Shown here: positions 1-31,364 of the stretch, piece by piece
Layout of the letters: every line of letters starts with the position of its first letter
Numbering within the stretch: position 1 is the stretch's first letter
From: Candidatus Methylomirabilis sp.
GTDB taxonomy: Bacteria > Patescibacteriota > Patescibacteriia > DYHP01
DNA length: 32,258 bases
NCBI GenBank assembly: GCA_020724105.1
Contig: DYHP01000004.1
Location: 1-32,258 of the forward strand
Reading direction: 5' to 3'
Translations under genes and position numbers: made by a program
Notes under the pieces: model-generated
What the model saw: the letters and a program-made list of their open reading frames with translations, nothing else
What the model was told of the DNA's origin: nothing
The model's database searches: none

Positions 1-2100
1 CAAGTCATAGACATTATTGGTTAAAGGATTGATGGAAGAGGCGAAAGTGGAGGTGGTGGTGTCGCCCTTGAGGGTGGTGTTGTTGACAAAAGCGGTGGTT
101 GAGGAATACAAACTTCTCCACGCCTGGCCATATGTTCCCAAATCATAAGTATTGTTGTCCGTGGCATAAAGATGCTGGAGGTGGGAAGTGGAAGAAGCGC
201 CTATTCCTCCAGACGGGTTTATCCAGCCGAGGATTGTTCCGCCTTCGTTTTGCCATTCAATAAGATTAGCAGATTGCGATGCGACTCGTCTGATGACAAT
301 GCCTTTGTAGTTTGAATTGGCAGTGTCAAGGGAAAGGCGGGTTTGGCCGAAAGTGGTGGAAGTGCCGACTCTTAATGCGGCGTTAACGGTAGTGGTGGTG
401 AAAACCGTGGTGTCGGTTTCAATGTTGGAAAGATAAAAATTATTCCATCTCAAAGCGGATGAACCCAAATCATAAGTGTCCGTGATTTTGGGCACGAAGG
501 ATGAACCAACGCGGCCGGTGAAAGTCAGGGTGTCTGAAGTGGCGTTGCCCAAAGTGGCATCGCCGTTAACAGTGATGCTGCCGGTAAAAGTGGAGTCGCC
601 CCCGACAGTAAGATGGCGGGTGATTGAAGCGTCATCGCCCACCGAGAGGTCGCGGCCCACGGAGAAATCATATGCCACGCCGCCAAAAGCGCCAGCAGTA
701 ACCGTTCCCTGAACCGCAGGCGTGCTGGCTTGTGTAACATAAGTGATGATTGGAGCGGCAGCGCCGGTTTGAATTCCCTTAACCGTGGCGCCTGTGAAAT
801 CTACCGTGCCGGTAACGCGGAGTTCCGGCGCCGAAAGAGCGCCAGTCATCACCAATTTTCCTCCCATTTCAAGGGAGCCGTCTTGCTTGACAGTGACGGC
901 GCCGAGTTTGAGGTCGCCATTTTCAATTTCCACCGGTCCTTTGATTCTTAATTTTTCCGCGCCAGCAATGATGCCGCCTTTGAGTTCTCCTTTGATGGTC
1001 AATTCGCGGTCAATGGTGGCGGAGTCAAGATTGAGTTTTGCGGCTTTGAGCAAAGTGATGATGTCGGCCGAGGTGAGTTTGGCCGCTTTTTCAATTTCTT
1101 TGATTTCTCTAATGATTATAGGAGCCGCCTTGCCTTCGGCAGATATGCCGCGCTCGCCTTCCGCCTCCGCCAAGGCTTCGGTGGACAAGTCGGCTTCGCC
1201 AACGCCGGGCAACGCCATTTCTGCGGGCGGTACGCCCTCCTCTGTTGAAACCTCCTCTGTTGAAACTTCGGCGGGCAAGCCGGGCGCGGTTTCTTCCGCG
1301 ATAGGACTAATAGGACTTATGGGTTTTTCTTTTGTAAACAGAGATACAACTTTGACTTGGATTTTAGATTTTAGATTTGAGGCAACATTGCGCAAGTGGA
1401 TGAGTCCCGCGGATGGCGCAGAGATTACTTTCTGGAGTCCGCCCTTTAGGGCGGTTTTAACAGATGTAGCCGCATCCTTTAAGCCGTGAGGGACACGCGG
1501 GCTAAAGCCCGCGGCTACATTAACTGCTCGCGACTTAAAAGTCGCGGCTACATTTTTGCCCGCCTGAAGACGGGACTCTATTTCTGAACCAACAAAAAGA
1601 ACACCGCTGCCGATGGATAATTCAACATGGCGGATGGAATCCTCGACTGTCTGCGCGAGATTTAAGATTTTAGATTTAAGATTAAATCTGTTAGTTGGCG
1701 GTTGTTGGTTGGCGGTTAGGGGTTGGTGATTGTTGGTTGATGGTTCGGCGGATTTTGCTTCTCCGCTGATTCTCTTCCCAAGCATTAAGAGAGAATCAAT
1801 CGCTCCCCTGCCGAATTCTTTAAACTTCTGTTTGACTAAACCCGCTCCTTCCTCCATCTCCATCCCCAGAGACAAGACCGCGTTGCCAAGGGTGAGTTCG
1901 GTCAGGCGCGCGGCGGATTCAACGCGTTGCGCCGCGGATTTGATAAGACCCATGGGGCCTATAGGACCTGTAGGACTTATAGGACTTGTTTCCGCAGCGG
2001 AAACCAAAAAAGGCGACAACAGAATAATCGCCGCAACTAATATGATTGTTGTTGCTTTGCAGATATTAAAATTGATATTAAAATTTTTTATTTTTTCCAT
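1..2100 (-). CDS. Large secreted/surface repeat protein; 5' complete, 3' end runs off the window
   Basis: My reverse-complement translation: ATG at 2100-2098, with the upstream 900 nt (2100-1201) checked codon by codon and the rest (1200-1) read once, showing no stop to position 1 (700 codons). It is not in the ORF track because it has no stop. The N-terminus MEKIKNFNINFNICKATTIILVAAIILLSPFLVSA resembles a signal peptide. The distal part is Gly/Thr-rich, with a (T/V)YDLG..W..Y motif recurring near 480-430, 150-100 and 18-1. The + ORFs 476-712, 785-1489 and 1730-2143 are antisense shadows. Confidence 0.75.
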   Translation of the reverse strand, partial: MEKIKNFNINFNICKATTIILVAAIILLSPFLVSAAETSPISPTGPIGPMGLIKSAAQRVESAARLTELTLGNAVLSLGMEMEEGAGLVKQKFKEFGRGAIDSLLMLGKRISGEAKSAEPSTNNHQPLTANQQPPTNRFNLKSKILNLAQTVEDSIRHVELSIGSGVLFVGSEIESRLQAGKNVAATFKSRAVNVAAGFSPRVPHGLKDAATSVKTALKGGLQKVISAPSAGLIHLRNVASNLKSKIQVKVVSLFTKEKPISPISPIAEETAPGLPAEVSTEEVSTEEGVPPAEMALPGVGEADLSTEALAEAEGERGISAEGKAAPIIIREIKEIEKAAKLTSADIITLLKAAKLNLDSATIDRELTIKGELKGGIIAGAEKLRIKGPVEIENGDLKLGAVTVKQDGSLEMGGKLVMTGALSAPELRVTGTVDFTGATVKGIQTGAAAPIITYVTQASTPAVQGTVTAGAFGGVAYDFSVGRDLSVGDDASITRHLTVGGDSTFTGSITVNGDATLGNATSDTLTFTGRVGSSFVPKITDTYDLGSSALRWNNFYLSNIETDTTVFTTTTVNAALRVGTSTTFGQTRLSLDTANSNYKGIVIRRVASQSANLIEWQNEGGTILGWINPSGGIGASSTSHLQHLYATDNNTYDLGTYGQAWRSLYSSTTAFVNNTTLKGDTTTSTFASSINPLTNNVYDL
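1301..1324. repeat. 9-mer family (ATAGGACTA/ATAGGACTT), in-frame in the surface protein
   Basis: ATAGGACTAATAGGACTTATGGGT, translated on the minus strand as PISPISPI. Confidence 0.7.
1658..1690. repeat. AGATTTA/AGATTTT heptamer array, in-frame in the surface protein
   Basis: GAGATTTAAGATTTTAGATTTAAGATTAAATCT, translated as NLKSKILNL. A shorter copy lies at 1361-1380. Confidence 0.7.
1944..1988. repeat. 9-mer family, in-frame just after the signal peptide of the surface protein
   Basis: ATAAGACCCATGGGGCCTATAGGACCTGTAGGACTTATAGGACTT, translated as SPISPTGPIGPMGLI. Confidence 0.75.
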
Positions 2101-2697: not shown

Positions 2698-3843
2698 TTA
2701 AATCTCTTCTTCGTGTTCCGGTTGTGATTTGACCCACTCATAAAGCTCTGATATCACTTTTTCGGTGTAATTGGCGAGGTGTAAGTCGTCGGTTAAAATT
2801 TTGGCGTCCGAAGCGTTAAAGCCGTATTCGTCTTGGAATCTCTGGCGTTTGGCAGCGGGCAATTCGGGAATTTTGTTTTTGAGCATCTCTCGAAATTCAA
2901 TCAAATTAAGCGGCGGGGTGTCGGGTTCGGGGAAGTAGCGGTAATCGTGCGATTCTTCCTTGATCCGCTGCTCCTCGGTGATGCCTTTTGTTTCATTCCA
3001 ACCGCGCGTTGATTGATACTTTGGCGGTTTGCCTTTTTCAAAAAGTTTTGTTTGGCGGATGATTTCATACTCCAGGGCGCGTTCGACGGCTTTGAAGGAA
3101 TTAAGATTTTTGATTTCGGTCTTCGGGTTAATAGGTCCTATGGGTCCAATAGGACTTATGGGTCCTAAAGGAGATAAAGAGATGTTGGCGTCAACTCGTA
3201 GATGGCCTTTTTCCATATCGGCGGAGGTAATGCCGAGATAGCGCATTATGAGCCGCAATTCCTGAAGAAAAATTTTCGCTTCCTGCGGGGAGCGGATGTC
3301 GGGCTCAGTAACGATTTCTAAAAGCGGGGTTCCTGAACGATTGAAATCAATGTATGTAGAAGCCATGTGCAAAAGCTTGGCCGCGTCTTCTTCAAGGTGG
3401 ACGCGCGCGAGGCGGATTTTAGTAGAAGCAGATTGACGCTGATTGAGTGCGCTGATTAACGCTGAAGAACTCCCTCCCTTACCCTCCCCCTTTTCAAGGG
3501 GGAGGGATGGGGTGGGGGATATTTCAAGATAACCTTGCCGCCCAATGGGTTTATCAAACTGTGAAATTTGGTAACCTTTGGGCAAGTCGGGGTAAAAATA
3601 ATTTTTGCGGTCGAATTTTGAAAAATCCAAAATCCCGCAATTTAAAGATAGTGCGGCGAGCACCGCATATTCTATCGCTCGCTTGTTTGGAACCGGCAAC
3701 ACGCCCGGATGACCCATGCAAACGGGGCAGATGGTGGTGTTGGGGGATTTGTCTTCGCCGGAATTGTCACAGGCGCAAAACATCTTAGATTTTGTTTTGA
3801 GTTGGACATGGATTTCTAATCCTATTATTGGAATATAATTCAT
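2698..3843 (-). CDS. gatB: Asp/Glu-tRNA amidotransferase subunit B, N-terminal catalytic part (ends early at TAA 2700-2698)
   Basis: MNYIPIIGLEIHVQLKTKSKMFCAC..., RVHLEEDAAKL and EIKNLNSFKAVERALEYEIIRQ are GatB hallmarks. It carries two in-frame repeat insertions (3470-3520 and 3129-3168). Confidence 0.85.
   Translation of the reverse strand: MNYIPIIGLEIHVQLKTKSKMFCACDNSGEDKSPNTTICPVCMGHPGVLPVPNKRAIEYAVLAALSLNCGILDFSKFDRKNYFYPDLPKGYQISQFDKPIGRQGYLEISPTPSLPLEKGEGKGGSSSALISALNQRQSASTKIRLARVHLEEDAAKLLHMASTYIDFNRSGTPLLEIVTEPDIRSPQEAKIFLQELRLIMRYLGITSADMEKGHLRVDANISLSPLGPISPIGPIGPINPKTEIKNLNSFKAVERALEYEIIRQTKLFEKGKPPKYQSTRGWNETKGITEEQRIKEESHDYRYFPEPDTPPLNLIEFREMLKNKIPELPAAKRQRFQDEYGFNASDAKILTDDLHLANYTEKVISELYEWVKSQPEHEEEI
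3129..3168. repeat. 9-mer family, in-frame in gatB
   Basis: TAATAGGTCCTATGGGTCCAATAGGACTTATGGGTCCTAA, translated as LGPISPIGPIGPIN just before the conserved EIKNLNSF block. Confidence 0.8.
3470..3520 (-). repeat. Family C hairpin (in-frame in the gatB N-terminal ORF)
   Basis: CTCCCTCCCTTACCCTCCCCCTTTTCAAGGGGGAGGGATGGGGTGGGGGAT. It translates as ISPTPSLPLEKGEGKGGS. Confidence 0.7.
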
Positions 3844-3848
3844 AAGAT

Positions 3849-3870
3849 AAATAGGACCAATGGGACTAAT
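3849..3870. repeat. 9-mer family, spacer between membrane-protein stop and gatB start
   Basis: AAATAGGACCAATGGGACTAAT fills the 22-bp spacer. Confidence 0.6.
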
Positions 3871-5538: not shown

Positions 5539-5572
5539 ATAGAGAATTATAACACAAAAATAAAAAAAATCC

Positions 5573-5622
5573 CATAAAACCTATAGGACCTTATAAGACC
5601 TTTAGGACTTATAGGACTAATA
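5573..5622. repeat. 9-mer family, dut-tmk spacer
   Basis: CATAAAACC TATAGGACC TTATAAGAC CTTTAGGAC TTATAGGAC TAATA. It overlaps the dut stop. Confidence 0.8.
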
Positions 5623-6051: not shown

Positions 6052-6056
6052 AAACA

Positions 6057-6140
6057 GGTCTTATAAGCCTGCCCCGTAGTTCCCGACTTGTCGGGATACT
6101 GCGGGGTCCTATTGGTCTTATGGGCCTCATGGGACTGATA
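6057..6140. repeat. 9-mer family flanking a GC hairpin, rplA-dut spacer
   Basis: AGGTCTTATAAGCC, then the hairpin CCCCG..TCCCGAC-TT-GTCGGGA..CGGGG, then TCCTATTGGTCTTATGGGCCTCATGGGACTGATA. Confidence 0.7.
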
Positions 6141-6143
6141 TAA

Positions 6144-6821: not shown

Positions 6822-6858
6822 ATAATTTAAACCAAAAATTAAAAACCAAAAACCAAAA

Positions 6859-7284: not shown

Positions 7285-7292
7285 AAATTTCT

Positions 7293-7337
7293 GATAGGAC
7301 TGATAAGTCCAATAAGACCAACGGGTCTCATAGGATT
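7293..7337. repeat. 9-mer family, nusG-rplK spacer
   Basis: GATAGGACTGATAAGTCCAATAAGACCAACGGGTCTCATAGGATT. Confidence 0.75.
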
Positions 7338-7881
7338 AAAGTTTTTTAATTTGCAACGAATCCAATTCCACCGGCGTCTCTCTGCCGAACATGCTGACTA
7401 TTACTTTTACTTTGCCTTTTTCCTGGTCGATTTCCATAACCTTGCCTTCAAATCCTTTTAACGGTCCGTCGGCGATTTTAATCGCCTGCCCCACGGATAC
7501 ATCGATATTGTATTGCGGGGCTTCAACCGCCATTCTTTTCTGCAAATTTTTCATTTCTTCCTCGGAAACCGGGGTCGGCGTATTGCCAGTGCCGATAAAA
7601 CCGGTGACATTCGGCGTGTTGCGCACCATATACCACGAATCGTCGGTTACGAACATCTCAACCAAAACATAGCCGGGGAAAATCTTTTCTTCCACGAGTT
7701 TTCGTTTGCCGTTTTTGATTTTAATCTTCTTTTCCTTAGGAACGATGATATTAAAAACCTTGTCGCCCATGTCATACGACTCGATTCTTCTTTTTAAATT
7801 TTCGGCGACGTTTTCTTCGTAGCCGGAATAAGTGTGGATTGCGTACCAGCGCCTGCCGTATTGCGTTATTTGTTTAGGCAT
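7336..7881 (-). CDS. nusG: Transcription termination/antitermination factor NusG
   Basis: WYAIHTYSGYE NGN start and a KOW-like C-terminus, within secE-nusG-rplK-rplA synteny. Confidence 0.92.
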   Translation of the reverse strand: MPKQITQYGRRWYAIHTYSGYEENVAENLKRRIESYDMGDKVFNIIVPKEKKIKIKNGKRKLVEEKIFPGYVLVEMFVTDDSWYMVRNTPNVTGFIGTGNTPTPVSEEEMKNLQKRMAVEAPQYNIDVSVGQAIKIADGPLKGFEGKVMEIDQEKGKVKVIVSMFGRETPVELDSLQIKKL

Positions 7882-7909
7882 ATTAAAATGTCGCTTTTCA
7901 ATAAAACAA

Positions 7910-7926
7910 ATAAGTCCTATAAGACG
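7910..7926. repeat. 9-mer family, secE-nusG spacer
   Basis: ATAAGTCCTATAAGACG overlaps the secE stop. Confidence 0.55.
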
Positions 7927-9389: not shown

Positions 9390-9394
9390 AAGAT

Positions 9395-9447
9395 GAATAG
9401 GACAAATAAGTCCAAGCAGTCCGATAGGACGAATGGAAGGAATGGGA
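9395..9447. repeat. 9-mer family, miaB-miaA spacer
   Basis: GAATAGGACAAATAAGTCCAAGCAGTCCGATAGGACGAATGGAAGGAATGGGA fills the spacer. Confidence 0.75.
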
Positions 9448-10662
9448 TTATCTATTGATTAAATCGTTTAATATCCGCCAGCGACGTTTTTTCACCTCGC
9501 GCGGAATATCATCTGGGAAATTTTTATAAGCGAACGTTCTGCTTCGCGGCGAGTACATAGAGATATAAGCGATGTTGAAACCGACTTTTTTGCAAAGTTT
9601 TATGGTGTTCTGAAATTGTTTTTCCGTTTCGCCGGGAAAGCCGACGATAATGTCCGTTCCCAACTCAATGCTGGGTTTTGCTTTTCTCACTTTTTTTATG
9701 ATTTTTAAATAATCTTTGGCAGCATATTTCCGATTCATTGTGCGCAAAATTTTATCATCGCCGGATTGAACCGGCAAATGCAGATAATTTACCATTTTTG
9801 GCAATGCCAAAGCTTTTATTGTTTCATCGTTCATATAACGAGGATGAGGGGCGGTGAAGTGAAGTCGTTTTAATCCTTCTAATTGATTCAATTCCCATAA
9901 CAGAGCGGCGAAATGATTTTTAAAAGGATCCTTTTTAGAAAAATTTTCCGGGTCGGGAGCAACCCATTTATTAACAATCTGGCCGAGGAGAATTATTTCT
10001 ATCGCGCCTTCGCGAATCAATTTTTTCGCTTCGCGCAAAATTTCTTTAAGCGGCCTGTTATATTCCCTGCCGCGCGCGTAAGGCACAACGCAATAAGAAC
10101 AAAACTCATTGCATCCAGTTTGAATCGTGAGGTAACGGGAGGTGGCAAAGTCGGATCTGGGCAAGATAGACAAATAGTCGCCTGCGCTGCAAATTTTAGA
10201 AATTGGTTGTTTAGAAATTGGAAATTGGTTATGGAAAATAGAAAGTGGAAATTGGCTTTTGCTATTTTCTATTTTCTGTTTTCTATTACTAATTTCTATT
10301 TTCCATAAAGCTAATTTCTGCGCCAAAGATGGCAATTCATCTATTCTGAAAAAAAGGTCCGCGCCGAAAAGTTTTTTGCGGATTTTCCCATCTTTATCGC
10401 GGCCGACCAGACAGCCGGTAACGGCGATAATTGGTTTAGAGGCCAGCGTTTTTGTAGGGTTGTTATGGCGTCTTGTGGCTTCTACTAACCCGAATACCCT
10501 GTCTTCGGCCGTTTGGCGAACCGAGCAGGAATTTATAACGATAAAATCGGCCGAATTTTTGTCTTTGGCTTTTTTCATCCCCATTTTTTCCAAAACTGCG
10601 GCAATTCTCTCGGAATCATTTTTATTCATCTGACAGCCGTATGTAACTATGCAGTATTTCAT
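9448..10662 (-). CDS. miaB: MiaB-family radical-SAM tRNA methylthiotransferase
   Basis: MKYCIVTYGCQMN start and the CNEFCSYC radical-SAM cluster motif. I prefer the start at 10662 (or 10668), because the track start at 10740 lies within an intergenic hairpin repeat. It carries the in-frame repeat at 10193-10303. Confidence 0.82.
   Translation of the reverse strand: MKYCIVTYGCQMNKNDSERIAAVLEKMGMKKAKDKNSADFIVINSCSVRQTAEDRVFGLVEATRRHNNPTKTLASKPIIAVTGCLVGRDKDGKIRKKLFGADLFFRIDELPSLAQKLALWKIEISNRKQKIENSKSQFPLSIFHNQFPISKQPISKICSAGDYLSILPRSDFATSRYLTIQTGCNEFCSYCVVPYARGREYNRPLKEILREAKKLIREGAIEIILLGQIVNKWVAPDPENFSKKDPFKNHFAALLWELNQLEGLKRLHFTAPHPRYMNDETIKALALPKMVNYLHLPVQSGDDKILRTMNRKYAAKDYLKIIKKVRKAKPSIELGTDIIVGFPGETEKQFQNTIKLCKKVGFNIAYISMYSPRSRTFAYKNFPDDIPREVKKRRWRILNDLINR
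10193..10303 (-). mobile_element. Family B element (in-frame in miaB)
   Basis: 87-bp core at 10212-10298 with the same termini, roughly 85-90% identical by eye to the miaA copy, in the same orientation and frame (KIEISNRKQKIENSKSQFPLSIFHNQFPISKQPISKI). Confidence 0.7.
10457..10484 (-). mobile_element. Family A right-end fragment (in-frame in miaB)
   Basis: GGGTTGTTATGGCGTCTTGTGGCTTCTA matches the element's right terminus. It translates as EATRRHNNP. Confidence 0.45.
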
Positions 10663-11958: not shown

Positions 11959-11998
11959 AATAGGACCAAATAAGTCCGATAGTCCCAATTGGACTTAT
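11959..11998. repeat. 9-mer family at the hup stop
   Basis: AATAGGACCAAATAAGTCCGATAGTCCCAATTGGACTTAT. Confidence 0.75.
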
Positions 11999-12273: not shown

Positions 12274-12367
12274 ATAAATCGCTACTTTACGCAACTGGCT
12301 ACGCAACTGAACGCCATTTATTTATGCGTCAAGTTGCGTTGTAAGTCGCGTTAAGTTGCTTCTAAAT

Positions 12368-12633: not shown

Positions 12634-12654
12634 TTTCCACTTCGGAGGTGGAAA
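12634..12654. repeat. Family E hairpin, left boundary of the tRNA-Val block
   Basis: TTTCCACTTCGGAGGTGGAAA. This is a direct repeat of 12988-13007. Confidence 0.65.
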
Positions 12655-12694
12655 TGGGTGATTAGGGACTCGAACCCCAGACCTTCTCGGCTTG
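12655..12694 (-). pseudogene. tRNA 3' half (anticodon-stem 3' strand, variable loop, T-arm, acceptor 3' strand), no partner adjacent
   Basis: Minus-strand read: caagc-CGAGA-AGGTC-TGGGG-TTCGAGT-CCCTA-ATCACCC-A. The T-loop is canonical. There is no D-arm or 5' acceptor before tRNA-Val begins. Confidence 0.55.
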
Positions 12695-12715
12695 CCCGCC
12701 CACCAATCTAGACCG

Positions 12716-12791
12716 TGGTGGGCACTGTAGGACTTGAACCTACGACCCCTTCGGTGTAAACGAAGTGCTCTTGCCGCTGAGCTAAGTGCCC
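12716..12791 (-). tRNA. tRNA-Val (anticodon UAC), CCA encoded
   Basis: Hand-folded: GGGCACT TA GCTC AGCGGCAA GAGC A CTTCG TTTACAC CGAAG GGGTC GTAGG TTCAAGT CCTAC AGTGCCC A CCA. This is a perfect cloverleaf. Confidence 0.9.
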
Positions 12792-12810
12792 AGATTGGTG
12801 GGAGGGTGAA

Positions 12811-12846
12811 TAAACGAGACGCTCTAACCAGCTGAGCTAAGCACTC
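12811..12846 (-). pseudogene. tRNA 5' half (acceptor 5' strand, D-arm, anticodon-stem 5' strand, first 4 loop nt)
   Basis: Minus-strand read: GAGTGCT TA GCTC AGCTGGTTA GAGC G TCTCG TTTA, followed by ttca-CCCTCCCACCA instead of the rest of a tRNA. Confidence 0.55.
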
Positions 12847-12851
12847 GTTCC

Positions 12852-14354: not shown

Positions 14355-14576
14355 ATATTTAAAATTCCTAATTCCCAATTTCTAATTCCTAATAAAATGC
14401 CAAATTATAAAGTTCAAATTATCCCGGCAACGAAGTTGCCTAGGGAATTTGATACAATTTGGATTTTGACATTTGGATTTTTATTAGGCCTTAGGTGAAT
14501 TAGGTGAATTTGATCTTCTATTATAAGAATGGCCGCCAATTACTAATTTACCTTAATCATCATAAAAAATCAATGT

Positions 14577-16571
14577 CTATACTCGTTGAAGCGGTTTTAT
14601 CCCCAACAACTTCATCCCTTGTTCAAACGTTTCGGCTATCTTTTTTATAAATAAAATGCGTTGCGTTCTGACGGATTCCGGGGCGTTAAGGACCGGCGTT
14701 GTTTCATAAAAATCATTAAATTTTTTTGCCAAATCATAAAGGTAAAGCGCCAGGTCTGAAGGGTCGAGATTTTTAGCGGACAACTCTATTGTTTCCTCAT
14801 ATTTGGCAAGATGCATTATCAAATTATTTATAGAAGCCATCTTTACGCCATCACCACGCCAATTTACGCCAGCAACCCTCTCATTTTCAGGTACCTGAAA
14901 AATATTATGTAAGGGGGAGTTGGCGGGGGTTGTGTTTTGGCGTTTGGCGGCGTTGTTATGGCGTTTTTTGGCTTCTACGAGAATGCTCTGTGTTCTGGCA
15001 TAGGCATATTCCAAATAAACGCCTGTTCTGCCCAACAAACTGACCGATTCCTCCGGCCTAAAAAGCAATTCCGATTTTGGGTCAACCTGCAAAATATAAA
15101 ATTTCAGCGCCGCCAAAGCCAAATTTTTAATAGAAGCCATCTTTACGCCATCACCACGCCAATTTACGCCAGCAACCCTCTCATTTTCAGGTACCTGAAA
15201 AATATTATGTAAGGGGGAGTTGGCGGGGGTTGTGTTTTGGCGTTTGGCGGCGTTGTTATGGCGTTTTTTGGCTTCTATAATTAGCATTTTCTCTAATTGT
15301 TCAATCAAATCATCGGCATCCACCCTTGCGCCTTCCCGCGATTTTAATTTTCCTTCGGGCAAAAGAACGAGGCCGTAATTTAAATGGAATAATTTTTCCA
15401 CAAAAGGCGCGCCAACAACTTCAAAAATTTTAAACAATTGCTTGAAATAATAATCCTGTTCGGAAGCGACAATATAAATCATTTTGTCAAATTTAAAATC
15501 CTTCGCTCTCTGAAACGCAAGTTCAATGTCATTTGTGGCGTAAACCGATGTGCCGTCGGCGCGCAACACGACCTTGTTTGCCAAACCGAACTTCGCCAAA
15601 TTCGCGATAATATTGCCTTTTTCGTCTTTTTTCAAAAATTTATTTTTAAAATATTCCGCCGCTCTTTTCTTCGCTTTTTTATAAATTTGACTTTCAAAAT
15701 AAATTTTGTCGAACTTTATGCCCAAATTTTTAAATGTTTCGTCAAACCCCCGAAGCGCCCAGTTGTTCATTTTTTTCCACAACGCGACAGTCGGCTTGTC
15801 GCCCGCCTCCCACTTTTTTAACAATTCGTACGCCTCATTTAGAAGCGACGGATTTTCTTTGGCTTTTTCACCGAATAAAACATAGTACCGCCCGACGAAC
15901 GCGTCGCCTTTTTCGGTTTTAGATTTAAGATTTAAAATTTCAGATTTGAATTTTTCTTCGGATTTCGGACCTGTTCCGTAGCGTCGCGAAGCGTCTGCTT
16001 CGGGGTTTCGAATCTCGGATTTCCGCTGCGAAGCAGTGGCTGGCGTTTCGCCATAACCAAATTTCTGGTAAGCAAGCATTGATTTGGCAATGTGGATCCC
16101 GCGGTCATTGACCAACGAGGTGCGGATAACTTTCGCGCCCCGCAATTCCAATATATTGCTTAACGCCTCGCCCAAAAGACCGTTCCGGACATGACCCAGA
16201 TGAAGCGGTTTGTTGCTGTTGGGAGAAACGTATTCTATTACCACCTTTTTAGATTTAAGATTTAAGTTGTCAGATTTAAGTTGTTTTTTTGTTAAAATTT
16301 CTCCGGCGATCTTTTCTTTATCCAAAATAAAATTTAAATAAGGACCCGCGATTCTGATTTCTTTTATATAAGGGTTCTTGGCGATGAAATCTTCCAATTT
16401 ATTTTTGAGTTCCTCCACCTTAGTTGTAAGTTGTAAACCGTGGCACGGCAGCGCCAAATCGCCCATTTCGGGTTTGGGCGGGTACTCAAAAACATCAGCC
16501 GTTATTGGCGATGGCAAGTGCTTATTAATCTCCTCTGCCAGATTTTGTTTCAGGGTCTTGAGAGAGAACAT
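14577..16571 (-). CDS. argS: Arginine--tRNA ligase carrying four repeat-derived in-frame inserts
   Basis: HLGHVRNG (HIGH-like) motif and a DALR-type C-terminus (YLEYAYARTQSIL ... LYLYDLAKKFNDFYE). 664 aa; roughly 150 aa map to repeats at 14831-14977, 15131-15277, 15917-16041 and 16248-16285. Confidence 0.9.
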   Translation of the reverse strand: MFSLKTLKQNLAEEINKHLPSPITADVFEYPPKPEMGDLALPCHGLQLTTKVEELKNKLEDFIAKNPYIKEIRIAGPYLNFILDKEKIAGEILTKKQLKSDNLNLKSKKVVIEYVSPNSNKPLHLGHVRNGLLGEALSNILELRGAKVIRTSLVNDRGIHIAKSMLAYQKFGYGETPATASQRKSEIRNPEADASRRYGTGPKSEEKFKSEILNLKSKTEKGDAFVGRYYVLFGEKAKENPSLLNEAYELLKKWEAGDKPTVALWKKMNNWALRGFDETFKNLGIKFDKIYFESQIYKKAKKRAAEYFKNKFLKKDEKGNIIANLAKFGLANKVVLRADGTSVYATNDIELAFQRAKDFKFDKMIYIVASEQDYYFKQLFKIFEVVGAPFVEKLFHLNYGLVLLPEGKLKSREGARVDADDLIEQLEKMLIIEAKKRHNNAAKRQNTTPANSPLHNIFQVPENERVAGVNWRGDGVKMASIKNLALAALKFYILQVDPKSELLFRPEESVSLLGRTGVYLEYAYARTQSILVEAKKRHNNAAKRQNTTPANSPLHNIFQVPENERVAGVNWRGDGVKMASINNLIMHLAKYEETIELSAKNLDPSDLALYLYDLAKKFNDFYETTPVLNAPESVRTQRILFIKKIAETFEQGMKLLGIKPLQRV
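14831..14977 (-). mobile_element. Family A 147-bp palindromic element, copy 1 (in-frame in argS)
   Basis: Termini TAGAAGCC...GGCTTCTA, central palindrome TTTTCAGGTACCTGAAAA, and arms that are imperfect inverted copies rich in ACGCC/GGCGT words. It translates as EAKKRHNNAAKRQNTTPANSPLHNIFQVPENERVAGVNWRGDGVKMASI. Confidence 0.75.
15131..15277 (-). mobile_element. Family A element, copy 2 (in-frame in argS)
   Basis: 147/147 nt identical to 14831-14977, exactly 300 bp away, in the same orientation and reading frame. Confidence 0.75.
15917..15950. repeat. AGATTTA heptamer array, in-frame in argS
   Basis: TTTTAGATTTAAGATTTAAAATTTCAGATTTGAA, translated as FKSEILNLKSKT. Confidence 0.7.
16248..16285. 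repeat. AGATTTAAG array, in-frame in argS
   Basis: TTTAGATTTAAGATTTAAGTTGTCAGATTTAAGTTG, translated as QLKSDNLNLKSKK. Confidence 0.7.
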
Positions 16572-16682
16572 GTCCTATCAAATTTTTAATTTTAAATTTT
16601 TAATTTTTAAACTGGGTTAAAAATTAAGCCAATAAAAATTTAAATAAAAATTAAGAATTAAAAATTGAAAATTACTATTTAT

Positions 16683-16907: not shown

Positions 16908-18434
16908 ATGGAAATCTTAATCGTCTTAATACTGGCCGCGGCCTGCGTCGGCGGTTTTTTGGGTTATTTAATCAGAAGCGAGGTGGCTAAAAGAAGGGCG
17001 GCGAGCGCCGAGGCGCGCGCGGGAAAAATCATAAGCGACGCCAAAACTCGAGCCCAGGAATTTTTAATAAGAACAAAAGAAAAAGGGCTGCAAATCATTG
17101 AGGAAGCCAAGAAAGAAGAAACCGAGAGAAGAAAAACATTGCTTGAACACGAAAAAAGATTGGAAAAAAGAGAATCGCTCTTTGACCAAAAACTTTTGGA
17201 ATCCCAGGAAAAGCAGCAAAAACTGCAGGACAAACTGCGCGAAATCGAGGAGATAAAATTAAAAATAAACCAATTAAAAGACCGAATATTGGGGGAATTG
17301 CAAAGGATTTCATCGCTTAGCGTGGAGGAGGCCAAGCAAGAAATTTTGAAACGCGTGGAAGACGACGTGAAAGACGAAGCGCTTTCAAGAATCAGGAAAC
17401 TTGAACAGACCGCGGCGGAAGAACTTGAAAACAAAACAAAAGAACTGATTGGCGATATCTTGCAAAGAGTGGCGATTTCGCACGCTGTGGAAATCACCAC
17501 CACCAGCGTTAATTTGCCCAACGACGAAATGAAAGGAAGAATTATCGGCAAAGAAGGCAGAAACATCAGGACCATAGAACAATTAACCGGCACCGAACTT
17601 ATTATTGACGAAACGCCGAACACAATAACCGTTTCAAGTTTCTCCCCCATCCGCCGCCAAATCGCCAAACGGGCGCTCGACAAACTCATTGCCGACGGCA
17701 GAATCCAGCCGGCGCGCATTGAAGAAGCGATTGACATCTCCAAAAAAGAATTGGCGATAGAAATTAAAAAAGCCGGCGAAGACACTTTGTATTCTTTGGG
17801 GCTTGAAATCGCGGGATACGACCCAAAGCTCATCCAAATCTTAGGCAGATTGAAATTCAGGACAAGTTACGGACAAAATGTTTTGCAGCACTCAATCGAA
17901 GTGGCGTACTTGTCCGCGCTTTTGGCCCAAGAATTGGGGCTCAACGCTTCATTGGCGAAAAAAGGCGGTTTGTTCCATGACGTCGGCAAGGCGGTTGACC
18001 AGGAAGTGCAGGGAACTCATCCTGAAATCGGCTATAATATTTTGAAAAAATTCGGCCTTCCCGAAGACGTCGCTTATTGCGCCTTGGGACATCATGAAGA
18101 CAAGCCAAAAACCATTGAAGCGATATTGGTGAAAACCGCCGATGCCATATCGGGCGCGAGGCCGGGCGCGCGCAAAGAAACGCTTGAACAATACATCCAA
18201 AGGTTGGAAGATTTGGAAAAAGTCGCCACCGGTTTTTCGGGCGTGGAAAAAGCCTACGCCATCCAAGCCGGCCGAGAAATCAGAGTTTTCGTTAAACCCG
18301 ACCAAATCGACGATTTGTCGGCGTTTAATTTGGCTCGCGACATTGCCAAACAAATAGAAACGGAATTAAGATACCCGGGCGAAATCAAGGTGACGGTCAT
18401 CAGGGAAACCCGCGCCATTGAATACGCGAGATAA
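16908..18434 (+). CDS. rny: Ribonuclease Y
   Basis: N-terminal TM helix, coiled-coil, KH domain (GRIIGKEGRNIRTIE) and HD domain (HSIEVA...LFHDVGKA...GHH). Confidence 0.93.
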   Translation: MEILIVLILAAACVGGFLGYLIRSEVAKRRAASAEARAGKIISDAKTRAQEFLIRTKEKGLQIIEEAKKEETERRKTLLEHEKRLEKRESLFDQKLLESQEKQQKLQDKLREIEEIKLKINQLKDRILGELQRISSLSVEEAKQEILKRVEDDVKDEALSRIRKLEQTAAEELENKTKELIGDILQRVAISHAVEITTTSVNLPNDEMKGRIIGKEGRNIRTIEQLTGTELIIDETPNTITVSSFSPIRRQIAKRALDKLIADGRIQPARIEEAIDISKKELAIEIKKAGEDTLYSLGLEIAGYDPKLIQILGRLKFRTSYGQNVLQHSIEVAYLSALLAQELGLNASLAKKGGLFHDVGKAVDQEVQGTHPEIGYNILKKFGLPEDVAYCALGHHEDKPKTIEAILVKTADAISGARPGARKETLEQYIQRLEDLEKVATGFSGVEKAYAIQAGREIRVFVKPDQIDDLSAFNLARDIAKQIETELRYPGEIKVTVIRETRAIEYAR

Positions 18435-18484
18435 TAAGACCTTTAGGACCTATAGGACCCATTAGTCCGATTGGACTCATAAGA
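18434..18484. repeat. 9-mer family, rny-ymdB spacer
   Basis: ATAAGACCTTTAGGACCTATAGGACCCATTAGTCCGATTGGACTCATAAG. Confidence 0.8.
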
Positions 18485-19326: not shown

Positions 19327-19327
19327 C

Positions 19328-19356
19328 TGGACTTATAAGTCCTATAGGTCCTATAA
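19328..19356. repeat. 9-mer family after the ymdB stop
   Basis: TGGACTTATAAGTCCTATAGGTCCTATAA, just before the terminator hairpin. Confidence 0.75.
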
Positions 19357-19361
19357 AATAA

Positions 19362-19390
19362 ATACCCCCGATAAAATCGGGGGTATTTTA
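19362..19390. terminator. Intrinsic terminator (bidirectional) after ymdB and the small minus-strand ORF
   Basis: ATACCCCCGAT-AAA-ATCGGGGGTAT is a perfect 11-bp stem, followed by TTTA. The left flank is A/T-rich. Confidence 0.75.
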
Positions 19391-19439: not shown

Positions 19440-19607
19440 CTAAATATCAGCGGAAATCAATTCCATTAATCTTTCGCGCTCCGCAAGAATGCAGGCGATT
19501 TTATCAAGTTCGCGCTCGCGCTTTTTCAAAATCTTTTTGGCCTTTTTGTAGCACTTTTTGATGATTTTTCTTACTCCGTCCTCTAAAACCGTGGTTTTTC
19601 CAACCAT
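19440..19607 (-). CDS. Small basic hypothetical protein (55 aa)
   Basis: ATG (MVGKTTVLEDG...) preceded by AAGGAGA at about 7 nt. A CCCCGAA/TTCGGGG hairpin lies immediately upstream at about 19624-19647. Confidence 0.4.
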   Translation of the reverse strand: MVGKTTVLEDGVRKIIKKCYKKAKKILKKRERELDKIACILAERERLMELISADI

Positions 19608-19784
19608 TTTTGTTCTCCTTTTGCCCCGAATCACACAGGGTTCGGGGTAACCCTGCACTCCGCGCGCTGTGGGGTTAAATTTTTAAAGCGCTTTCATCTA
19701 ATTTAAGAATAATGGATTGGGGCGCTTTGTTAATTAAGAATAAAAAATCCTTGTTGTTTTTCTTAACATTGTTTTTCTTGATAA

Positions 19785-22400: not shown

Positions 22401-22409
22401 TTGTCGGAA

Positions 22410-22440
22410 TGGTGGGAGGGCAAGGTTGAGCTATGGGCGG
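22410..22440 (-). repeat. Duplicated 16-nt 5' end of tRNA-Lys fused to a CCCTCCCACCA motif
   Basis: 22425-22440 is identical to 22385-22400. The minus-strand read is CCGCCCATAGCTCAAC-cttg-CCCTCCCACCA. The same architecture occurs at 12796-12846. Confidence 0.7.
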
Positions 22441-22450
22441 GCAAACAAAA

Positions 22451-22527
22451 ATCCTATAAGTCCTATAGGACCTATAAGTCCTATGTGTCCTATAAGTCCT
22501 ATAAGTCCTATAGGACTTATAGGCCCG
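22451..22527. repeat. Tandem array of about 8 units of the 9-mer TCCTATAAG/TCCTATAGG
   Basis: TCCTATAAG TCCTATAGG ACCTATAAG TCCTATGTG TCCTATAAG TCCTATAAG TCCTATAGG ACTTATAGG. It contains the perfect 24-bp palindrome CTATAAGTCCTATAGGACTTATAG and overlaps the rpoC stop codon. Confidence 0.9.
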
Positions 22528-26377: not shown

Positions 26378-26575
26378 ATTCGCTCACGCTCAAAATTAAA
26401 AATTAAAAATCAAATATCAAAAATAAATTTTAAATTTTTAATTTTAAATTTTTATTGAATTTTCAATTTCAAATTTCAAAACGGTTTTAAATGTTTAAAA
26501 ATTAAGTAAATAAAAATTGTTTAAAAATTTTAAATTATAAATTAAAAATTGGAAGATGGTTTTTTGGTTTTTAGT
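26378..26575. repeat. 198-bp extremely AT-rich spacer built from AAAATTA-type heptamers and inverted copies
   Basis: AAAATTAAAAATTAAAAATCAAATATCAAAAATAAATTTTAAATTTTTAATTTTAAATTTTT... lies between the rpoB stop and the rpoC start. Confidence 0.8.
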
Positions 26576-30225: not shown

Positions 30226-30250
30226 AAATCCGAAATCCGAAATCCGAAAT
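30226..30250. repeat. AATCCGA heptamer x3, trpS-rpoB spacer
   Basis: AAATCCGAAATCCGAAATCCGAAAT. The same word in reverse complement (TCGGATTTCGGA) occurs inside the argS insert at 15958-15969. Confidence 0.75.
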
Positions 30251-30296
30251 TTTTAAAATTGAAAAGCGGGACTGATTCGGGATTGGGGATTGGTTA

Positions 30297-31319: not shown

Positions 31320-31364
31320 ATAAGTCCTATAAGTCTCCTATAAGTCCTATAGGTCTTATAGGTT
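31320..31364. repeat. 9-mer family, rnj-trpS spacer
   Basis: ATAAGTCCTATAAGTCTCCTATAAGTCCTATAGGTCTTATAGGTT. Confidence 0.8.

What the first reader, a model, noticed from the sequence alone, without database searches (positions are those of the whole stretch)
22451..22527. Pervasive 9-bp-periodic GTCCTATAG/AAGTCCTAT arrays filling almost every same-strand gene junction
I count 14 clusters in 32 kb. The largest (22451-22527) has about 8 tandem 9-mers, including a perfect 24-bp palindrome abutting the rpoC stop. Eight clusters lie in the short same-strand spacers between one gene's stop and the next gene's start: membrane protein/gatB, dut/tmk, rplA/dut, nusG/rplK, secE/nusG, miaB/miaA, rny/ymdB and rnj/trpS. 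Several fill the spacer completely; those in the dut/tmk, rplA/dut and secE/nusG spacers occupy only part of it. Many downstream genes there have no visible Shine-Dalgarno sequence. Units are partially self-complementary (AAGTCCTATAGGACTT), so the arrays can form hairpins on either strand. This distribution resembles REP/BIME or REPIN elements but with a strict 9-bp phase. Candidate roles are intercistronic RNA processing or stability sites, a binding array for a nucleoid or regulatory protein, or substrates of a RAYT-like transposase. None of these is testable from this window alone.
Basis: partly seen in the sequence, partly recalled or inferred. Interest (0 to 1): 0.78.

Follow-up and report, generated by a model that had tools for sequence, protein, structure and literature searches.

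The report
Nonamer hairpin repeats with Avd-like partner
The 9-bp repeats are real: they belong to a hairpin-forming repeat family that sits right after gene ends in many distant bacterial phyla and, in other genomes, brackets a small Avd/S23p-like four-helix-bundle gene, which points to a REP-like element I could not find described rather than to chance or a RAYT transposase system.

Summary
The unit is TATARGWCY, with 36 hits against 1.8 expected, in about 14 clusters. The largest (22450-22526) is a 26-bp-stem hairpin that also supplies the rpoC stop codon. The window is a Patescibacteria (CPR) contig.

Three results change the picture.
1. The same nonamer array occurs in Acidobacteriota, Planctomycetota, Verrucomicrobiota, Bacteroidota, Chlorobiota and other phyla, including GC-rich genomes. 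It lies at gene 3' ends (convergent 52, divergent 4) and often donates the TAG/TAA stop.
2. In those phyla the arrays bracket one gene family, the "four helix bundle suffix" protein (TIGR04258, within PF05635, the family of the retroelement accessory protein Avd and of S23p). Of 80 such genes, 34 have an array within 300 nt. That is about 40 times the density farther away.
3. In this CPR clade, classical PF05635 genes sit inside hairpins whose arms are heptamer arrays (6 of 6). The window holds a gene-less copy of that hairpin.

Best reading: the nonamer clusters are mostly decayed, gene-less copies of a selfish hairpin element like the intervening sequences of 23S rRNA. They tolerate in-frame expansion and translation (gatB, a secreted protein). 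For the host they act at most as RNA hairpins. No RAYT link was found. How they spread is unknown. I found no description in Rfam or in the searched papers.

The parts
22450..22526 (.). Largest nonamer array, about 8 units. It contains a 26-bp perfect palindrome at 22498-22523 and supplies the rpoC stop (22517-19) plus 7 further in-frame stops. On the rpoC sense strand it is followed by UUUUUGUUU.
   Evidence: The sense-strand RNA fold is -45.7 kcal/mol with z = -9.1. It is flagged as terminator-like. Rfam gives only sub-threshold matches to generic hairpin models.
31320..31363 (.). Array in the rnj/trpS spacer. The array lies in the stop-codon frame of rnj.
   Evidence: Fold -14.8 kcal/mol, z = -3.5.
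19327..19356 (.). Three-unit array directly after the ymdB stop. A separate canonical terminator follows at 19360-19388.
   Evidence: Fold z = -2.4.
18432..18481 (.). Decayed array that fills the rny/ymdB spacer from the rny stop codon onward.
   Evidence: It folds weakly (z = -0.3). The sibling contig L121 has an array of the same family at the orthologous spacer, 9465-9503.
11959..11997 (.). Array between the convergent genes 10908-11903 (+) and HU 11995-12306 (-), next to a canonical terminator.
   Evidence: Fold z = -4.0.
9390..9450 (.). Decayed array that fills the miaB/miaA spacer. The miaB stop TAA is followed directly by TCCCAT.
   Evidence: Fold z = -2.7.
7905..7925 (.). One to two units at the secE stop. 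The stop TAG comes from TTATAGGAC.
7285..7338 (.). Array that fills the nusG/rplK spacer, starting at the nusG stop codon.
   Evidence: Fold z = -2.5.
6105..6143 (.). Array half lying directly after the rplA stop. It pairs with the units at 6052-6066.
6052..6066 (.). Other half of the rplA/dut array. A GC-rich hairpin (6067-6104) is nested between the two halves.
5568..5622 (.). Array from the dut stop into the dut/tmk spacer. A TGTTATAAT promoter-like box follows it.
   Evidence: Fold z = -3.8. The orthologous spacer in L121 (17351-17429) has an array of the same family.
3846..3868 (.). Two-unit array between the unnamed 290-aa ORF (3866-4738) and gatB. The stop TAG is followed directly by TCCCAT.
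3130..3170 (-). Array inside the gatB coding sequence, translated as PLGPISPIGPIGPI.
1943..1986 (-). Array translated as SPISPTGPIGPMGLI just after the signal peptide of a long minus-strand ORF that runs off the window.
1300..1326 (-). Array translated as KPISPISPI in the same long minus-strand ORF.
14363..14510 (.). Related element of a different family: a gene-less hairpin whose arms are heptamer arrays (AATTYCY ... RGRAATT). It is homologous to the arms that bracket PF05635 four-helix-bundle genes in CPR relatives.
   Evidence: Alignment A3. Gene-bearing copies are L122 and L276, L287, L288, L289, L290.

Best explanation
The nonamer clusters are copies of a dispersed, quasi-palindromic tandem-repeat element with unit TATARGWCY. 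Three units already give a 12-bp stem with a 5-nt loop.

The family is shared across many bacterial phyla. Its gene-bearing form consists of two inverted arrays bracketing a small 'four helix bundle suffix' gene (TIGR04258, within PF05635/TIGR02436). That is the family of Avd, the accessory protein of diversity-generating retroelements (DGRs), and of S23p, the protein encoded in intervening sequences (IVS) of 23S rRNA. The window holds only gene-less and mostly decayed copies.

Shown here:
- The arrays lodge at gene 3' ends and between cistrons.
- They often provide the TAG/TAA stop codon.
- They are read as [GS]PI in one frame, and the arrays found inside coding sequence here are translated in that frame.
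- The longest copy is a strong hairpin followed by a U-tract.

Inferred:
- Once transcribed within operon mRNAs, the longer copies fold into hairpins. These could serve as RNase III or exonuclease barriers or as terminators, in the way the RNase III-cut stem of rRNA intervening sequences does.
- Unit number can change in 9-bp steps, which keeps the reading frame. This rests on one set of paralogues in a Chlorobiaceae locus.
- The short, degenerate copies are near-neutral remnants.
- Spread depends on the four-helix-bundle protein or on recombination between arrays. The mechanism is unknown.
For: Family and spread:
- The motif is enriched 20-fold in the window.
- The same array was found in more than 120 loci from about a dozen phyla, many at 55-73% GC.
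- Position weights from the window, the 120 loci and the gene-flanking arrays correlate at r = 0.98.

Placement at 3' ends:
- Arrays lie in 52 convergent, 60 codirectional and 4 divergent spacers.
- Array density per spacer is 0.36: 0.15: 0.04, which tracks the number of gene 3' ends per spacer. The median distance is 12 nt to the upstream stop and 68 nt to the downstream start.
- In 52 of 226 array sides entered by a long ORF, the stop lies within 5 nt of the array edge. In 20 cases it is the array's first TAG. In four loci both convergent ORFs end this way.

Partner gene:
- ORFs flanked by arrays on both sides are TIGR04258 plus TIGR02436/PF05635.
- Of 80 independent homologues from metagenomes, 26/78 have an array within 300 nt upstream, 17/69 downstream and 9 on both sides. 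Only 3 arrays occur in 127 kb lying farther than 300 nt from the gene. In the subclade nearest the query, 23 of 32 genes are flanked.

Precedent for the architecture:
- CPR PF05635 genes lie between inverted heptamer arrays in 6 of 6 cases, and two Prevotella genes do the same with other heptamers.
- The window has the gene-less homologue of the CPR heptamer hairpin.
- The Coxiella 23S rRNA intervening sequence carries its S23p ORF in the loop of an RNase III-cut stem formed by terminal inverted repeats. Variable-number heptamer repeats lie upstream of the ORF (PMC4990558).
- PF05635 resembles Avd (PMC10053308).

Mobility of sister elements in the window:
- A 158-nt hairpin element occurs twice in argS at 99% identity. 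A 127-nt element occurs in both miaA and miaB.
Against: - No four-helix-bundle gene lies in the window, or in the sibling contig that shares the nonamers. The rest of this genome could not be searched.
- The flanking association holds for one subclade. Homologues inside hsdM/hsdS and cas7/cas4 operons mostly lack flanking arrays.
- Cause and effect are open: the gene might simply prefer to land in pre-existing arrays.
- Four-helix-bundle proteins have no known nuclease or transposase activity.
- Arrays next to one such gene were identical in all ten samples examined, one of which had a different upstream gene. So hypervariability is not shown.
- Gene calls in the foreign loci are crude, based on the longest ORF with a GC3 weighting.
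- The orthologous spacers in siblings always hold some hairpin, of differing families. This could instead mean the host selects for a hairpin at those positions.
Confidence: 0.6

Rival explanations
1. The arrays are host-selected RNA structures at intercistronic positions and 3' ends. They would act as decay barriers, RNase III sites or terminators, with no link to a mobile gene. On this view the nonamer is simply a convenient self-complementary unit that also carries stop codons on both strands.
For: - Every orthologous spacer in the siblings holds some hairpin, even where its sequence differs.
- The arrays show a strong 3'-end bias.
- The rpoC array is a strong hairpin followed by a U-tract.
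- An AU-rich, unstructured stretch of 8-14 nt is kept before the downstream start codons.
Against: - Structure alone does not explain near-identical sequence across phyla and in GC-rich genomes.
- Several window copies barely fold (z = -0.3 to -2.7).
- The sense strand does not fold better than the antisense strand (27 vs 37, p = 0.22).
- Canonical terminators sit beside two of the arrays.
- The specific bracketing of one gene family is left unexplained.
Confidence: 0.15
2. The arrays are binding sites on DNA or RNA for the pentameric four-helix-bundle protein, which acts as a host regulator. The dispersed arrays would be its regulon, and the arrays around the gene would provide autoregulation.
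For: - Periodic, strand-symmetric sites.
- The arrays abut the gene's own start and stop codons.
- S23p family proteins form toroidal pentamers (PMC4990558). That Avd forms a basic pentamer which binds nucleic acid is from my memory of the Avd structural work and was not checked here.
Against: - No such gene was seen in the window or the sibling contigs.
- Binding was not tested.
- In-frame insertion of arrays into gatB and a secreted protein looks like selfish spread rather than regulation.
Confidence: 0.12
3. The arrays are REP/REPIN elements mobilised by a RAYT (Y1 HUH) transposase.
For: - The distribution is REP-like and the arrays donate stop codons, as described for GTAG REPs (PMC3733652).
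- One RAYT-like ORF, judged by eye, was among the 150 neighbours of four-helix-bundle genes.
Against: - There is no GTAG or CGTC tag. The corresponding position is A in 78% of units.
- The architecture is tandem 9-bp units rather than a single palindrome.
- The sequence is shared across phyla, whereas REPs co-evolve with their RAYT within lineages (PMC6006769).
- The gene flanked by arrays is not a transposase.
- No Y1 transposase was found among the window ORFs scanned.
Confidence: 0.06
4. The arrays are independent microsatellite-like slippage products or remnants of collagen-like (Gly-Pro-Ile) coding repeats, and are not a family of elements.
For: - One frame on each strand reads (GPI)n.
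- Copy number differs between paralogous cassettes in L088.
Against: - Variation between units is symmetric about the palindrome (R1/Y5, W3, T6/A9), not concentrated at third codon positions.
- The Gly codon position is not conserved; it varies G/S/R.
- Arrays lie in any frame relative to their neighbouring genes.
- The placement at 3' ends and beside one gene family is far from random.
Confidence: 0.03

Closest known systems
23S rRNA intervening sequences that carry an S23p (PF05635) ORF (Coxiella, Leptospira)
   Same: - A small four-helix-bundle gene sits in the loop of a stem made by terminal inverted repeats.
- Short tandem repeats of variable number lie next to the ORF.
- The stem is cut by RNase III.
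- The element is regarded as selfish, and ORF-less hairpin versions exist (PMC4990558).
- The CPR heptamer elements and the TIGR04258-nonamer elements share this architecture.
   Different: - Here the elements lie between and after protein-coding genes, not in rRNA helices.
- The arms are arrays of 9-bp (or 7-bp) units.
- The gene-less copies are dispersed at high density (about 14 in 32 kb).
- The arrays donate stop codons and are sometimes translated.
- RNase III cutting was not tested.
REP/BIME elements and REPINs with their RAYT transposase
   Same: - Short dispersed palindromes at gene 3' ends.
- They can supply a TAG stop and can sit inside ORFs (PMC3733652).
- A partner gene is flanked by its own repeats.
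   Different: - There is no GTAG or CGTC tag.
- The build is a tandem nonamer array.
- The sequence is conserved across phyla.
- The partner is an Avd/S23p-like four-helix bundle, not a Y1 HUH transposase.
Avd, the accessory variability determinant of diversity-generating retroelements (DGRs)
   Same: The partner gene belongs to the same protein family, PF05635/TIGR02436 (PMC10053308).
   Different: - No recurrent reverse-transcriptase neighbour was found beside the TIGR04258 genes, and no template/variable repeat pair was looked for.
- The neighbours are ordinary genes, type I restriction-modification genes or cas genes.
Rickettsia palindromic elements (RPE)
   Same: Palindromic repeats inserted in frame into protein-coding genes and translated. 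Here this applies to gatB, a secreted protein, and, for sister elements, miaA, miaB and argS. The comparison rests on my own knowledge of RPEs plus PMC3733652.
   Different: - RPEs are 100-150 bp single palindromes restricted to Rickettsia.
- They have no tandem short-unit arms and no known partner gene.
Cyanobacterial STRR (short tandemly repeated repetitive) heptamers
   Same: Tandem 7-nt units in intergenic DNA with no known function (from my own knowledge). The window and its relatives are full of such heptamer arrays.
   Different: - A link between STRR and four-helix-bundle genes was not tested here and I do not know of one.
- The unit length and sequence differ.

Membership tests
REP/REPIN-RAYT | Dispersed 20-40 bp imperfect palindromes in extragenic DNA, mainly at gene 3' ends | tested here: met
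   Most copies fold as hairpins. Spacer counts are convergent 52, codirectional 60, divergent 4.
REP/REPIN-RAYT | Conserved GTAG (or CGTC) tetranucleotide at one end (PMC3733652) | tested here: not met
   The unit is R-G-W-C-Y-T-A-T-A. The base before TAGG is A in 78% of units and G in 8%.
REP/REPIN-RAYT | A cognate Y1 HUH transposase gene flanked by the repeats | tested here: not met
   The flanked gene is TIGR04258/PF05635. No Y1 transposase was found among the window ORFs scanned. Whole genomes were not searched.
IVS-type element (stem plus S23p/PF05635 ORF) | Inverted terminal repeats bracketing a PF05635/TIGR02436 gene | tested here: met
   Met for gene-bearing relatives: the nonamer loci L042, L095 and 34 of 80 metagenome loci, and 6 of 6 CPR heptamer loci. 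The window itself holds only gene-less copies.
IVS-type element (stem plus S23p/PF05635 ORF) | Insertion in 23S rRNA helix 25 or 45 | tested here: not met
   All copies lie between, after or inside protein-coding genes. There is no rRNA in the window.
IVS-type element (stem plus S23p/PF05635 ORF) | Excision of the stem by RNase III at the RNA level | not testable with these tools
   Only the rpoC array (26-bp stem) is long enough to be an obvious double-stranded RNA substrate.
Diversity-generating retroelement (DGR) | Reverse transcriptase gene next to the Avd-like gene | tested here: not met
   Recurrent neighbours are hsdM, hsdS, hsdR, cas7, cas4 and cas1, assigned by eye from translated sequence motifs without a Pfam scan. 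No recurrent reverse-transcriptase cluster appeared among the 150 neighbouring ORFs clustered by BLAST.
Diversity-generating retroelement (DGR) | A template repeat / variable repeat pair with adenine-specific differences | not tested
   Not examined.
Intrinsic terminator | GC-rich hairpin followed by a U-tract | tested here: inconclusive
   Two arrays qualify, at 22453-22478 and 11968-12000. The others lack a U-tract or lie within operons.
Known RNA families (Rfam 15) | A match at or above a family's gathering score | tested here: not met
   Only tRNAs matched, both in the window and in 18 array-bearing loci. The large array gives sub-threshold matches to generic miRNA-hairpin models.
Collagen-like or other coding repeat | Variation concentrated at third codon positions, invariant Gly, and a constant reading frame | tested here: not met
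   Variation is symmetric about the palindrome. The frame relative to neighbouring genes varies.

The most novel reading that the evidence does not exclude
Short-period tandem-repeat hairpins may be the non-autonomous form of a widespread class of mobile element for which I found no description. This would include 9-mers with TIGR04258 genes, 7-mers with classical PF05635 genes, and perhaps cyanobacterial STRRs. The only encoded protein of such an element is an Avd/S23p-like pentameric four-helix bundle.

On this reading the protein recognises its cognate repeat arms. It would propagate them into hairpin loops and stop-codon-proximal sites of transcribed DNA, possibly through an RNA intermediate with a reverse transcriptase acting in trans. 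That would also explain why the same protein family turns up in rRNA intervening sequences, DGRs, restriction-modification operons and CRISPR adaptation modules.
Probability: 0.25. Interest if true: 0.9.

Novelty: new variant of a known kind. Interest (0 to 1): 0.78.

Why it matters
- PF05635/TIGR02436 is a very large family with no known function outside DGRs. Both searches here hit the ceiling of 8000 scored protein clusters. A consistent pairing with cognate short tandem-repeat arms gives it a testable role.
- The pairing links four scattered observations: rRNA intervening sequences, heptamer repeats next to the Coxiella S23p ORF, four-helix-bundle genes wedged inside restriction-modification and cas operons, and unexplained short tandem repeats in intergenic DNA.
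- It offers an explanation for much of the 'filled' intergenic space and for the in-frame protein insertions of these CPR genomes.
- It flags a source of annotation error: spurious GPIGPI or SYRSYK ORFs, wrongly placed stops and starts, and assembly breaks.
- If the long arrays define mRNA ends, they would shape operon expression in this CPR lineage, whose downstream genes here show no visible Shine-Dalgarno sequence.

Tried and rejected
- **Coding origin (collagen-like GPI).** Rejected on the position weights and the varying reading frames.
- **RNA-only function shown by wobble-pair asymmetry.** Sense and antisense strands fold equally well.
- **Rfam.** No family matched.
- **Literal sequence and peptide searches of the literature.** Nothing relevant.
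- **Exact-protein look-up of the window's YmdB.** The ORF as I delimited it is not on record; the database entry starts 9 codons later.
- **Viral contigs.** Only 52 array hits in 2.9 million contigs, so phage carriage is not the main story. Not followed up.
- **Profile search of PDB sequences with the partner protein.** No hit. The AlphaFold model (pLDDT 85) gives only a weak fold match, the most probable being 2RLD of the S23 family at probability 0.96 but E = 0.38. Family membership therefore rests on the TIGRFAM and Pfam profiles.
- **Array-length polymorphism between samples.** None at the P0125 locus. P0182 has no flanking arrays.
- **Internal array-like stretch of TIGR04258 genes as an insertion.** Rejected: the segment had a constant length in the 26 homologues where it could be delimited, so it is native coding sequence.
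- **Search for classical PF05635 relatives in viral contigs.** Found none.
- **One scan_promoters_terminators call and one paper search** failed on argument limits and were repeated.
Full report
**1. The observation**

The sequence at 22451-22527 reads ...TCCTATAAGTCCTATAGGACCTATAAGTCCTATGTGTCCTATAAGTCCTATAAGTCCTATAGGACTTATAGGCCC. GTCCTATAG with up to one mismatch occurs 36 times in the window, against 1.76 expected from dinucleotide-preserving shuffles whose maximum was 6. Tandem Repeats Finder gives period 9 with 6.8 copies at 22452-22512 and smaller period-9 arrays at seven other places.

The genes are:
- gatB (split into two ORFs), tmk, dut, rplA, rplK, nusG, secE, miaA, miaB
- HU, a diacylglycerol-kinase-like gene, bactofilin, argS
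- rny, ymdB, a LonB-like protease, rpoC, rpoB, trpS, rnj

YmdB homologues place the contig in Patescibacteria (CPR).

- The perfect palindrome is 26 bp (22498-22523) and overlaps the rpoC stop.
- Nonamers occupy 8 of about 13 same-strand junctions. The other junctions mostly hold heptamer arrays.
- The 9-bp phase is occasionally broken.
- Three clusters are translated: gatB reads ...SLSPLGPISPIGPIGPINPK.... A long minus-strand ORF that runs off the left end of the window reads ...AAETSPISPTGPIGPMGLIKS... and ...KPISPISPI.... The ORF listed at 785-1489(+) is therefore probably spurious.

**2. Anatomy of the unit**

Position weights from 721 units in foreign loci and 40 units in the window agree: R-G-W-C-Y-T-A-T-A, with G2, C4, A7 and T8 nearly invariant. 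The variable positions are symmetric about the palindrome (R1 with Y5, the central W3, T6 with A9). They do not coincide with third codon positions, which argues against a coding origin.

On either strand, one reading frame gives (G/S)-P-I. A second gives S/T-Y-R/K. The third contains TAG or TAA in every unit.

Three units (ATAGGTCCTATAGGACYTATAGGACCTAT) make a perfect 12-bp stem with a 5-nt loop. That 27-31 nt form is the most common length elsewhere.

In the window the upstream gene's stop codon is usually part of the first unit. Examples are TAG|TCCTAT after dut and after the 290-aa ORF, TAA|TCCTAT after nusG, TTATAG|GAC at secE, and GGC CTA TAA at rpoC, which is followed by seven more in-frame stops.

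Folding:
- The rpoC copy folds at -45.7 kcal/mol (z = -9.1) and is followed by UUUUUGUUU. The consensus scan also flags it and the copy at 11968-12000 as terminator-like.
- Most other copies fold moderately (z = -2.4 to -4.0).
- rny/ymdB does not fold above background (z = -0.3).

**3. The same array occurs across phyla**

The loci come from:
- Acidobacteriota (the largest share)
- Planctomycetota
- Verrucomicrobiota, including Lentisphaeria
- Bacteroidota (Prevotella, Tidjanibacter, Alistipes)
- Chlorobiota, Armatimonadota, Desulfobacterota, Cloacimonadota, Nitrospirota
- Sumerlaeia, Hydrogenedentes, Aminicenantes
- two Patescibacteria, one Heliobacteriaceae and one Vibrio

There were no Actinomycetota, and only the single Vibrio and the single Heliobacteriaceae represent the commonly sequenced Pseudomonadota and Bacillota. 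Most of these loci are 55-73% GC, so the AT-rich arrays stand out from their surroundings, and each extends well beyond the 20-nt search pattern. Within these loci, period-9 repeats are dominated by this one family. Isolate genomes are among the hits (Chlorobium ferrooxidans DSM 13031, Chlorobaculum sp. 24CR, Prevotella pectinovora P4-76), so the arrays are not an artefact of metagenome assembly.

**4. Where the arrays sit**

Using crude gene calls, arrays lie in 60 codirectional, 52 convergent and 4 divergent spacers. The same loci contain 406, 143 and 90 spacers of those types. The array density per spacer is therefore 0.15 (codirectional), 0.36 (convergent) and 0.04 (divergent). That is close to 1: 2: 0, the number of gene 3' ends each spacer type contains.

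In codirectional spacers the array lies next to the upstream stop (median 12 nt) rather than the downstream start (median 68 nt). It is closer to the stop in 45 cases and closer to the start in 15.

Of 226 array sides entered by an open frame of at least 120 codons, 52 have the stop within 5 nt of the array edge. In 20 of these the stop is exactly the array's first TAG. In L072, L076, L079 and L095 one array ends both convergent ORFs.

Sense and antisense strands fold equally well (sense more stable in 27 cases, antisense in 37, p = 0.22). So nothing points to selection on the RNA of one strand.

**5. The partner gene**

I looked for ORFs flanked by arrays on both sides. Two stood out, in a Chlorobiaceae locus (L042) and a Gemmataceae locus (L095). 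Both match TIGR04258 'four helix bundle suffix domain' (E = 1e-25) together with TIGR02436/PF05635. Three more of the 120 loci carry homologues with 55-68% identity across phyla.

A scan of metagenome contigs with a profile of these five proteins confirmed 594 relatives, and the best 80 were kept. Among those 80:
- 26 of 78 have an array within 300 nt upstream.
- 17 of 69 have one downstream.
- 9 have arrays on both sides.
- Only 3 arrays occur in 127 kb of the same contigs lying farther than 300 nt from the gene, which is about a 40-fold difference in density.
- In the 32 loci closest to the query, 23 are flanked.

The flanking contexts all differ. The arrays run from the preceding gene's stop up to the gene's ATG, which is often the ATG of a CCYATG unit, and they start again at its stop codon. 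Position weights of these flanking arrays match those of the window (r = 0.98).

More distant homologues sit between hsdM and hsdS or between cas7 and cas4-cas1. These neighbour names were assigned by eye from translated sequence motifs. Those homologues mostly lack flanking arrays.

Many homologues carry an array-like stretch inside the gene, translated SY[KR]TY[RK]TY. In the 26 homologues where it could be delimited this segment has a constant length, so it is native coding sequence and not an insertion. Why it resembles the repeat remains unexplained.

PF05635 is the family of the S23p proteins of 23S rRNA intervening sequences and resembles Avd, the DGR accessory protein (PMC10053308). It has also been noted in CPR rRNA insertions (PMC11270868) and next to CRISPR adaptation modules (PMC10910872).

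**6. The same architecture with heptamers in this CPR clade**

I fetched syntenic sibling contigs with 64-69% YmdB identity. In them the same spacers are filled by other short-period repeats arranged as inverted arms. L121 keeps the nonamer family at rny/ymdB and dut/tmk.

In L122 a classical PF05635 gene lies in the loop of a hairpin whose arms are AATTYCY heptamer arrays. Five further CPR homologues, each in an unrelated genomic context, have the same arms. One of them comes from the same assembly as sibling L124. Two Prevotella PF05635 genes lie between other inverted heptamer arrays.

The window holds a gene-less copy of the CPR heptamer hairpin at 14363-14510, and its arms align with the gene-bearing copies.

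The literature offers one precedent. The Coxiella intervening sequence carries its S23p ORF in the loop of a 28-bp stem formed by terminal inverted repeats, and RNase III cuts that stem. Two or three tandem GACAGAT heptamers lie upstream of the ORF, and their number varies between strains (PMC4990558).

I found no paper or Rfam family describing the nonamer arrays or the general pairing.

**7. How it most likely works**

Shown here:
- The arrays form one sequence family shared across phyla.
- They sit at gene 3' ends and often donate the stop codon.
- They are tolerated in coding sequence in the [GS]PI frame.
- They specifically bracket one clade of Avd/S23p-like genes.
- The longest window copy is a strong hairpin followed by a U-tract.

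Inferred:
- The window's clusters are gene-less, largely decayed copies of an element like an rRNA intervening sequence.
- Unit number can change in 9-bp steps, which preserves reading frames. This could explain how the arrays can lie against, or inside, genes. The only support is the 4, 2 and 2 units seen in the three paralogous cassettes of L088.
- Long copies act in mRNA as double-stranded RNA or exonuclease barriers, or as terminators, while short copies do little.
- Spread involves the four-helix-bundle protein or recombination between arrays.

Two observations give indirect support for mobility. First, sister hairpin elements in the window occur as near-identical copies inside different genes: a 158-nt element twice in argS at 99% identity, and a 127-nt element in both miaA and miaB. 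Second, in one metagenome sample an otherwise identical gene-plus-arrays unit has a different upstream neighbour, with the breakpoint exactly at the array edge. That second case could be an assembly join.

Against rapid slippage, the arrays at that locus were identical in all ten samples examined, one of which was the sample with the different upstream gene.

**8. What remains open**

- I could not search the rest of this genome for the partner gene.
- The direction of the association is unknown: the arrays might be made or moved by the protein, or the gene might simply land in pre-existing arrays.
- No biochemical activity is known that would move DNA.
- Host selection for 'some hairpin in every spacer' may coexist with selfish spread.

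**9. Verdict**

The REP-like reading is right in spirit, but REP/RAYT membership fails. The closest known relative is the S23p-bearing intervening sequence of 23S rRNA. The cross-phylum nonamer family and its pairing with TIGR04258 genes appear undescribed in the libraries I searched.

Noticed in passing
window 14363-14510; L122 4506-5035; L276, L287-L290: A hairpin with heptamer arms (AATTYCY ... RGRAATT) in the bactofilin/argS spacer is homologous to the arms that bracket PF05635 four-helix-bundle genes in 6 of 6 CPR relatives. So the gene-less and gene-bearing forms of one element occur within one clade.
   Followed up: yes
window 8383-8509 (miaA), 10193-10319 (miaB); 14820-14977 and 15120-15277 (argS); 8674-8746, 9166-9238, 10450-10484: Other hairpin elements are inserted in frame and translated inside housekeeping genes. 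A 127-nt heptamer-arm element occurs in miaA and miaB at 86% identity. A 158-nt element with TAGAAGCC...GGCTTCTA ends occurs twice in argS at 99% identity, with partial copies in miaA and miaB. These proteins are longer than in most of the sibling contigs.
   Followed up: partly
window 1658-1745, 6829-6858, 16581-16674, 26390-26575, 30226-30293: Many intergenic spacers hold tandem heptamer arrays (AGATTTA, GTTGGTG, AAACCAA, A/T-rich units, AAATCCG facing GATTGGG), often as inverted arms. Similar heptamer, octamer and decamer arrays occur in the array-bearing loci of other phyla (for example AATCCGC in L003 and AATTATG in L076).
   Followed up: partly
window 6067-6104: A GC-rich hairpin (CCCCGTAGTTCCCGACTTGTCGGGATACTGCGGGG) is nested in the middle of the rplA/dut nonamer array, as if hairpin loops were insertion sites. 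Similar small GC hairpins sit inside repeat hairpins in the sibling contigs.
   Followed up: no
window 2683-2737: gatB is split. The GatB_N ORF ends at TAA 2698-2700. The GatB/YqeY part starts in another frame (ATG at 2683), leaving a short overlap or gap. This could be a real split gene, a frameshift or a sequencing error.
   Followed up: partly
window 19440-19658 (-): A 72-aa ORF matches only the C-terminal part of Peptidase_M41 (FtsH). Sibling L124 has a full ftsH next to the LonB-like gene, so this looks like a gene remnant left by a rearrangement.
   Followed up: no
window 12640-12850 and 22401-22445; L121 1446-2200: There are tRNA fragments around intact tRNA genes. A tRNA-like 5' half and 3' half flank tRNA-Val. 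A duplicate of the tRNA-Lys 5' end (TTGAGCTATGGGCGG) lies just upstream of tRNA-Lys. L121 shows similar partial duplicates.
   Followed up: no
L177-L256 (for example L054, L023, L215, L240): 27 of 80 TIGR04258 genes contain, at a fixed position, a stretch whose DNA looks like 2-3 nonamer units and is translated SY[KR]TY[RK]TY. The segment had a constant length in the 26 homologues where it could be delimited, so it is not an insertion. Its resemblance to the flanking repeat is unexplained.
   Followed up: partly
L192, L204, L210-L212, L230/231, L246, L255; L221, L227, L237, L248-L253, L256: TIGR04258 genes are repeatedly wedged between hsdM and hsdS of type I restriction-modification operons, and between cas7 and cas4-cas1 of CRISPR-Cas operons. 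These neighbour names were assigned by eye from translated sequence motifs, without a Pfam scan.
   Followed up: partly
L262 versus L257-L266: The same gene-plus-arrays unit has a different upstream gene in one sample, with the breakpoint exactly at the outer edge of the array. This is either recombination or mobility at the array, or an assembly join.
   Followed up: partly
L122 versus L123: Two assemblies of one CPR population (99.9% identical) differ by indels of a repeat unit of about 90 nt, in the HU/hyp336 spacer and inside miaB (606 versus 546 aa).
   Followed up: partly
L088 6494-7412; L075 4365-4467: Three paralogous cassettes in a Chlorobiaceae genome carry 4, 2 and 2 nonamer units at the same position. 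A Chlorobaculum array has eight TATCCGTCC units followed by TATAAGACC units, showing expansion of variant units.
   Followed up: no
L009 1063-1089; L019 569-685: In Bacteroidales the array is sometimes read as the hydrophobic core of a signal peptide or N-terminus ([21 protein letters not shown]; MMGLMGLMGL...IGLIGLI).
   Followed up: no
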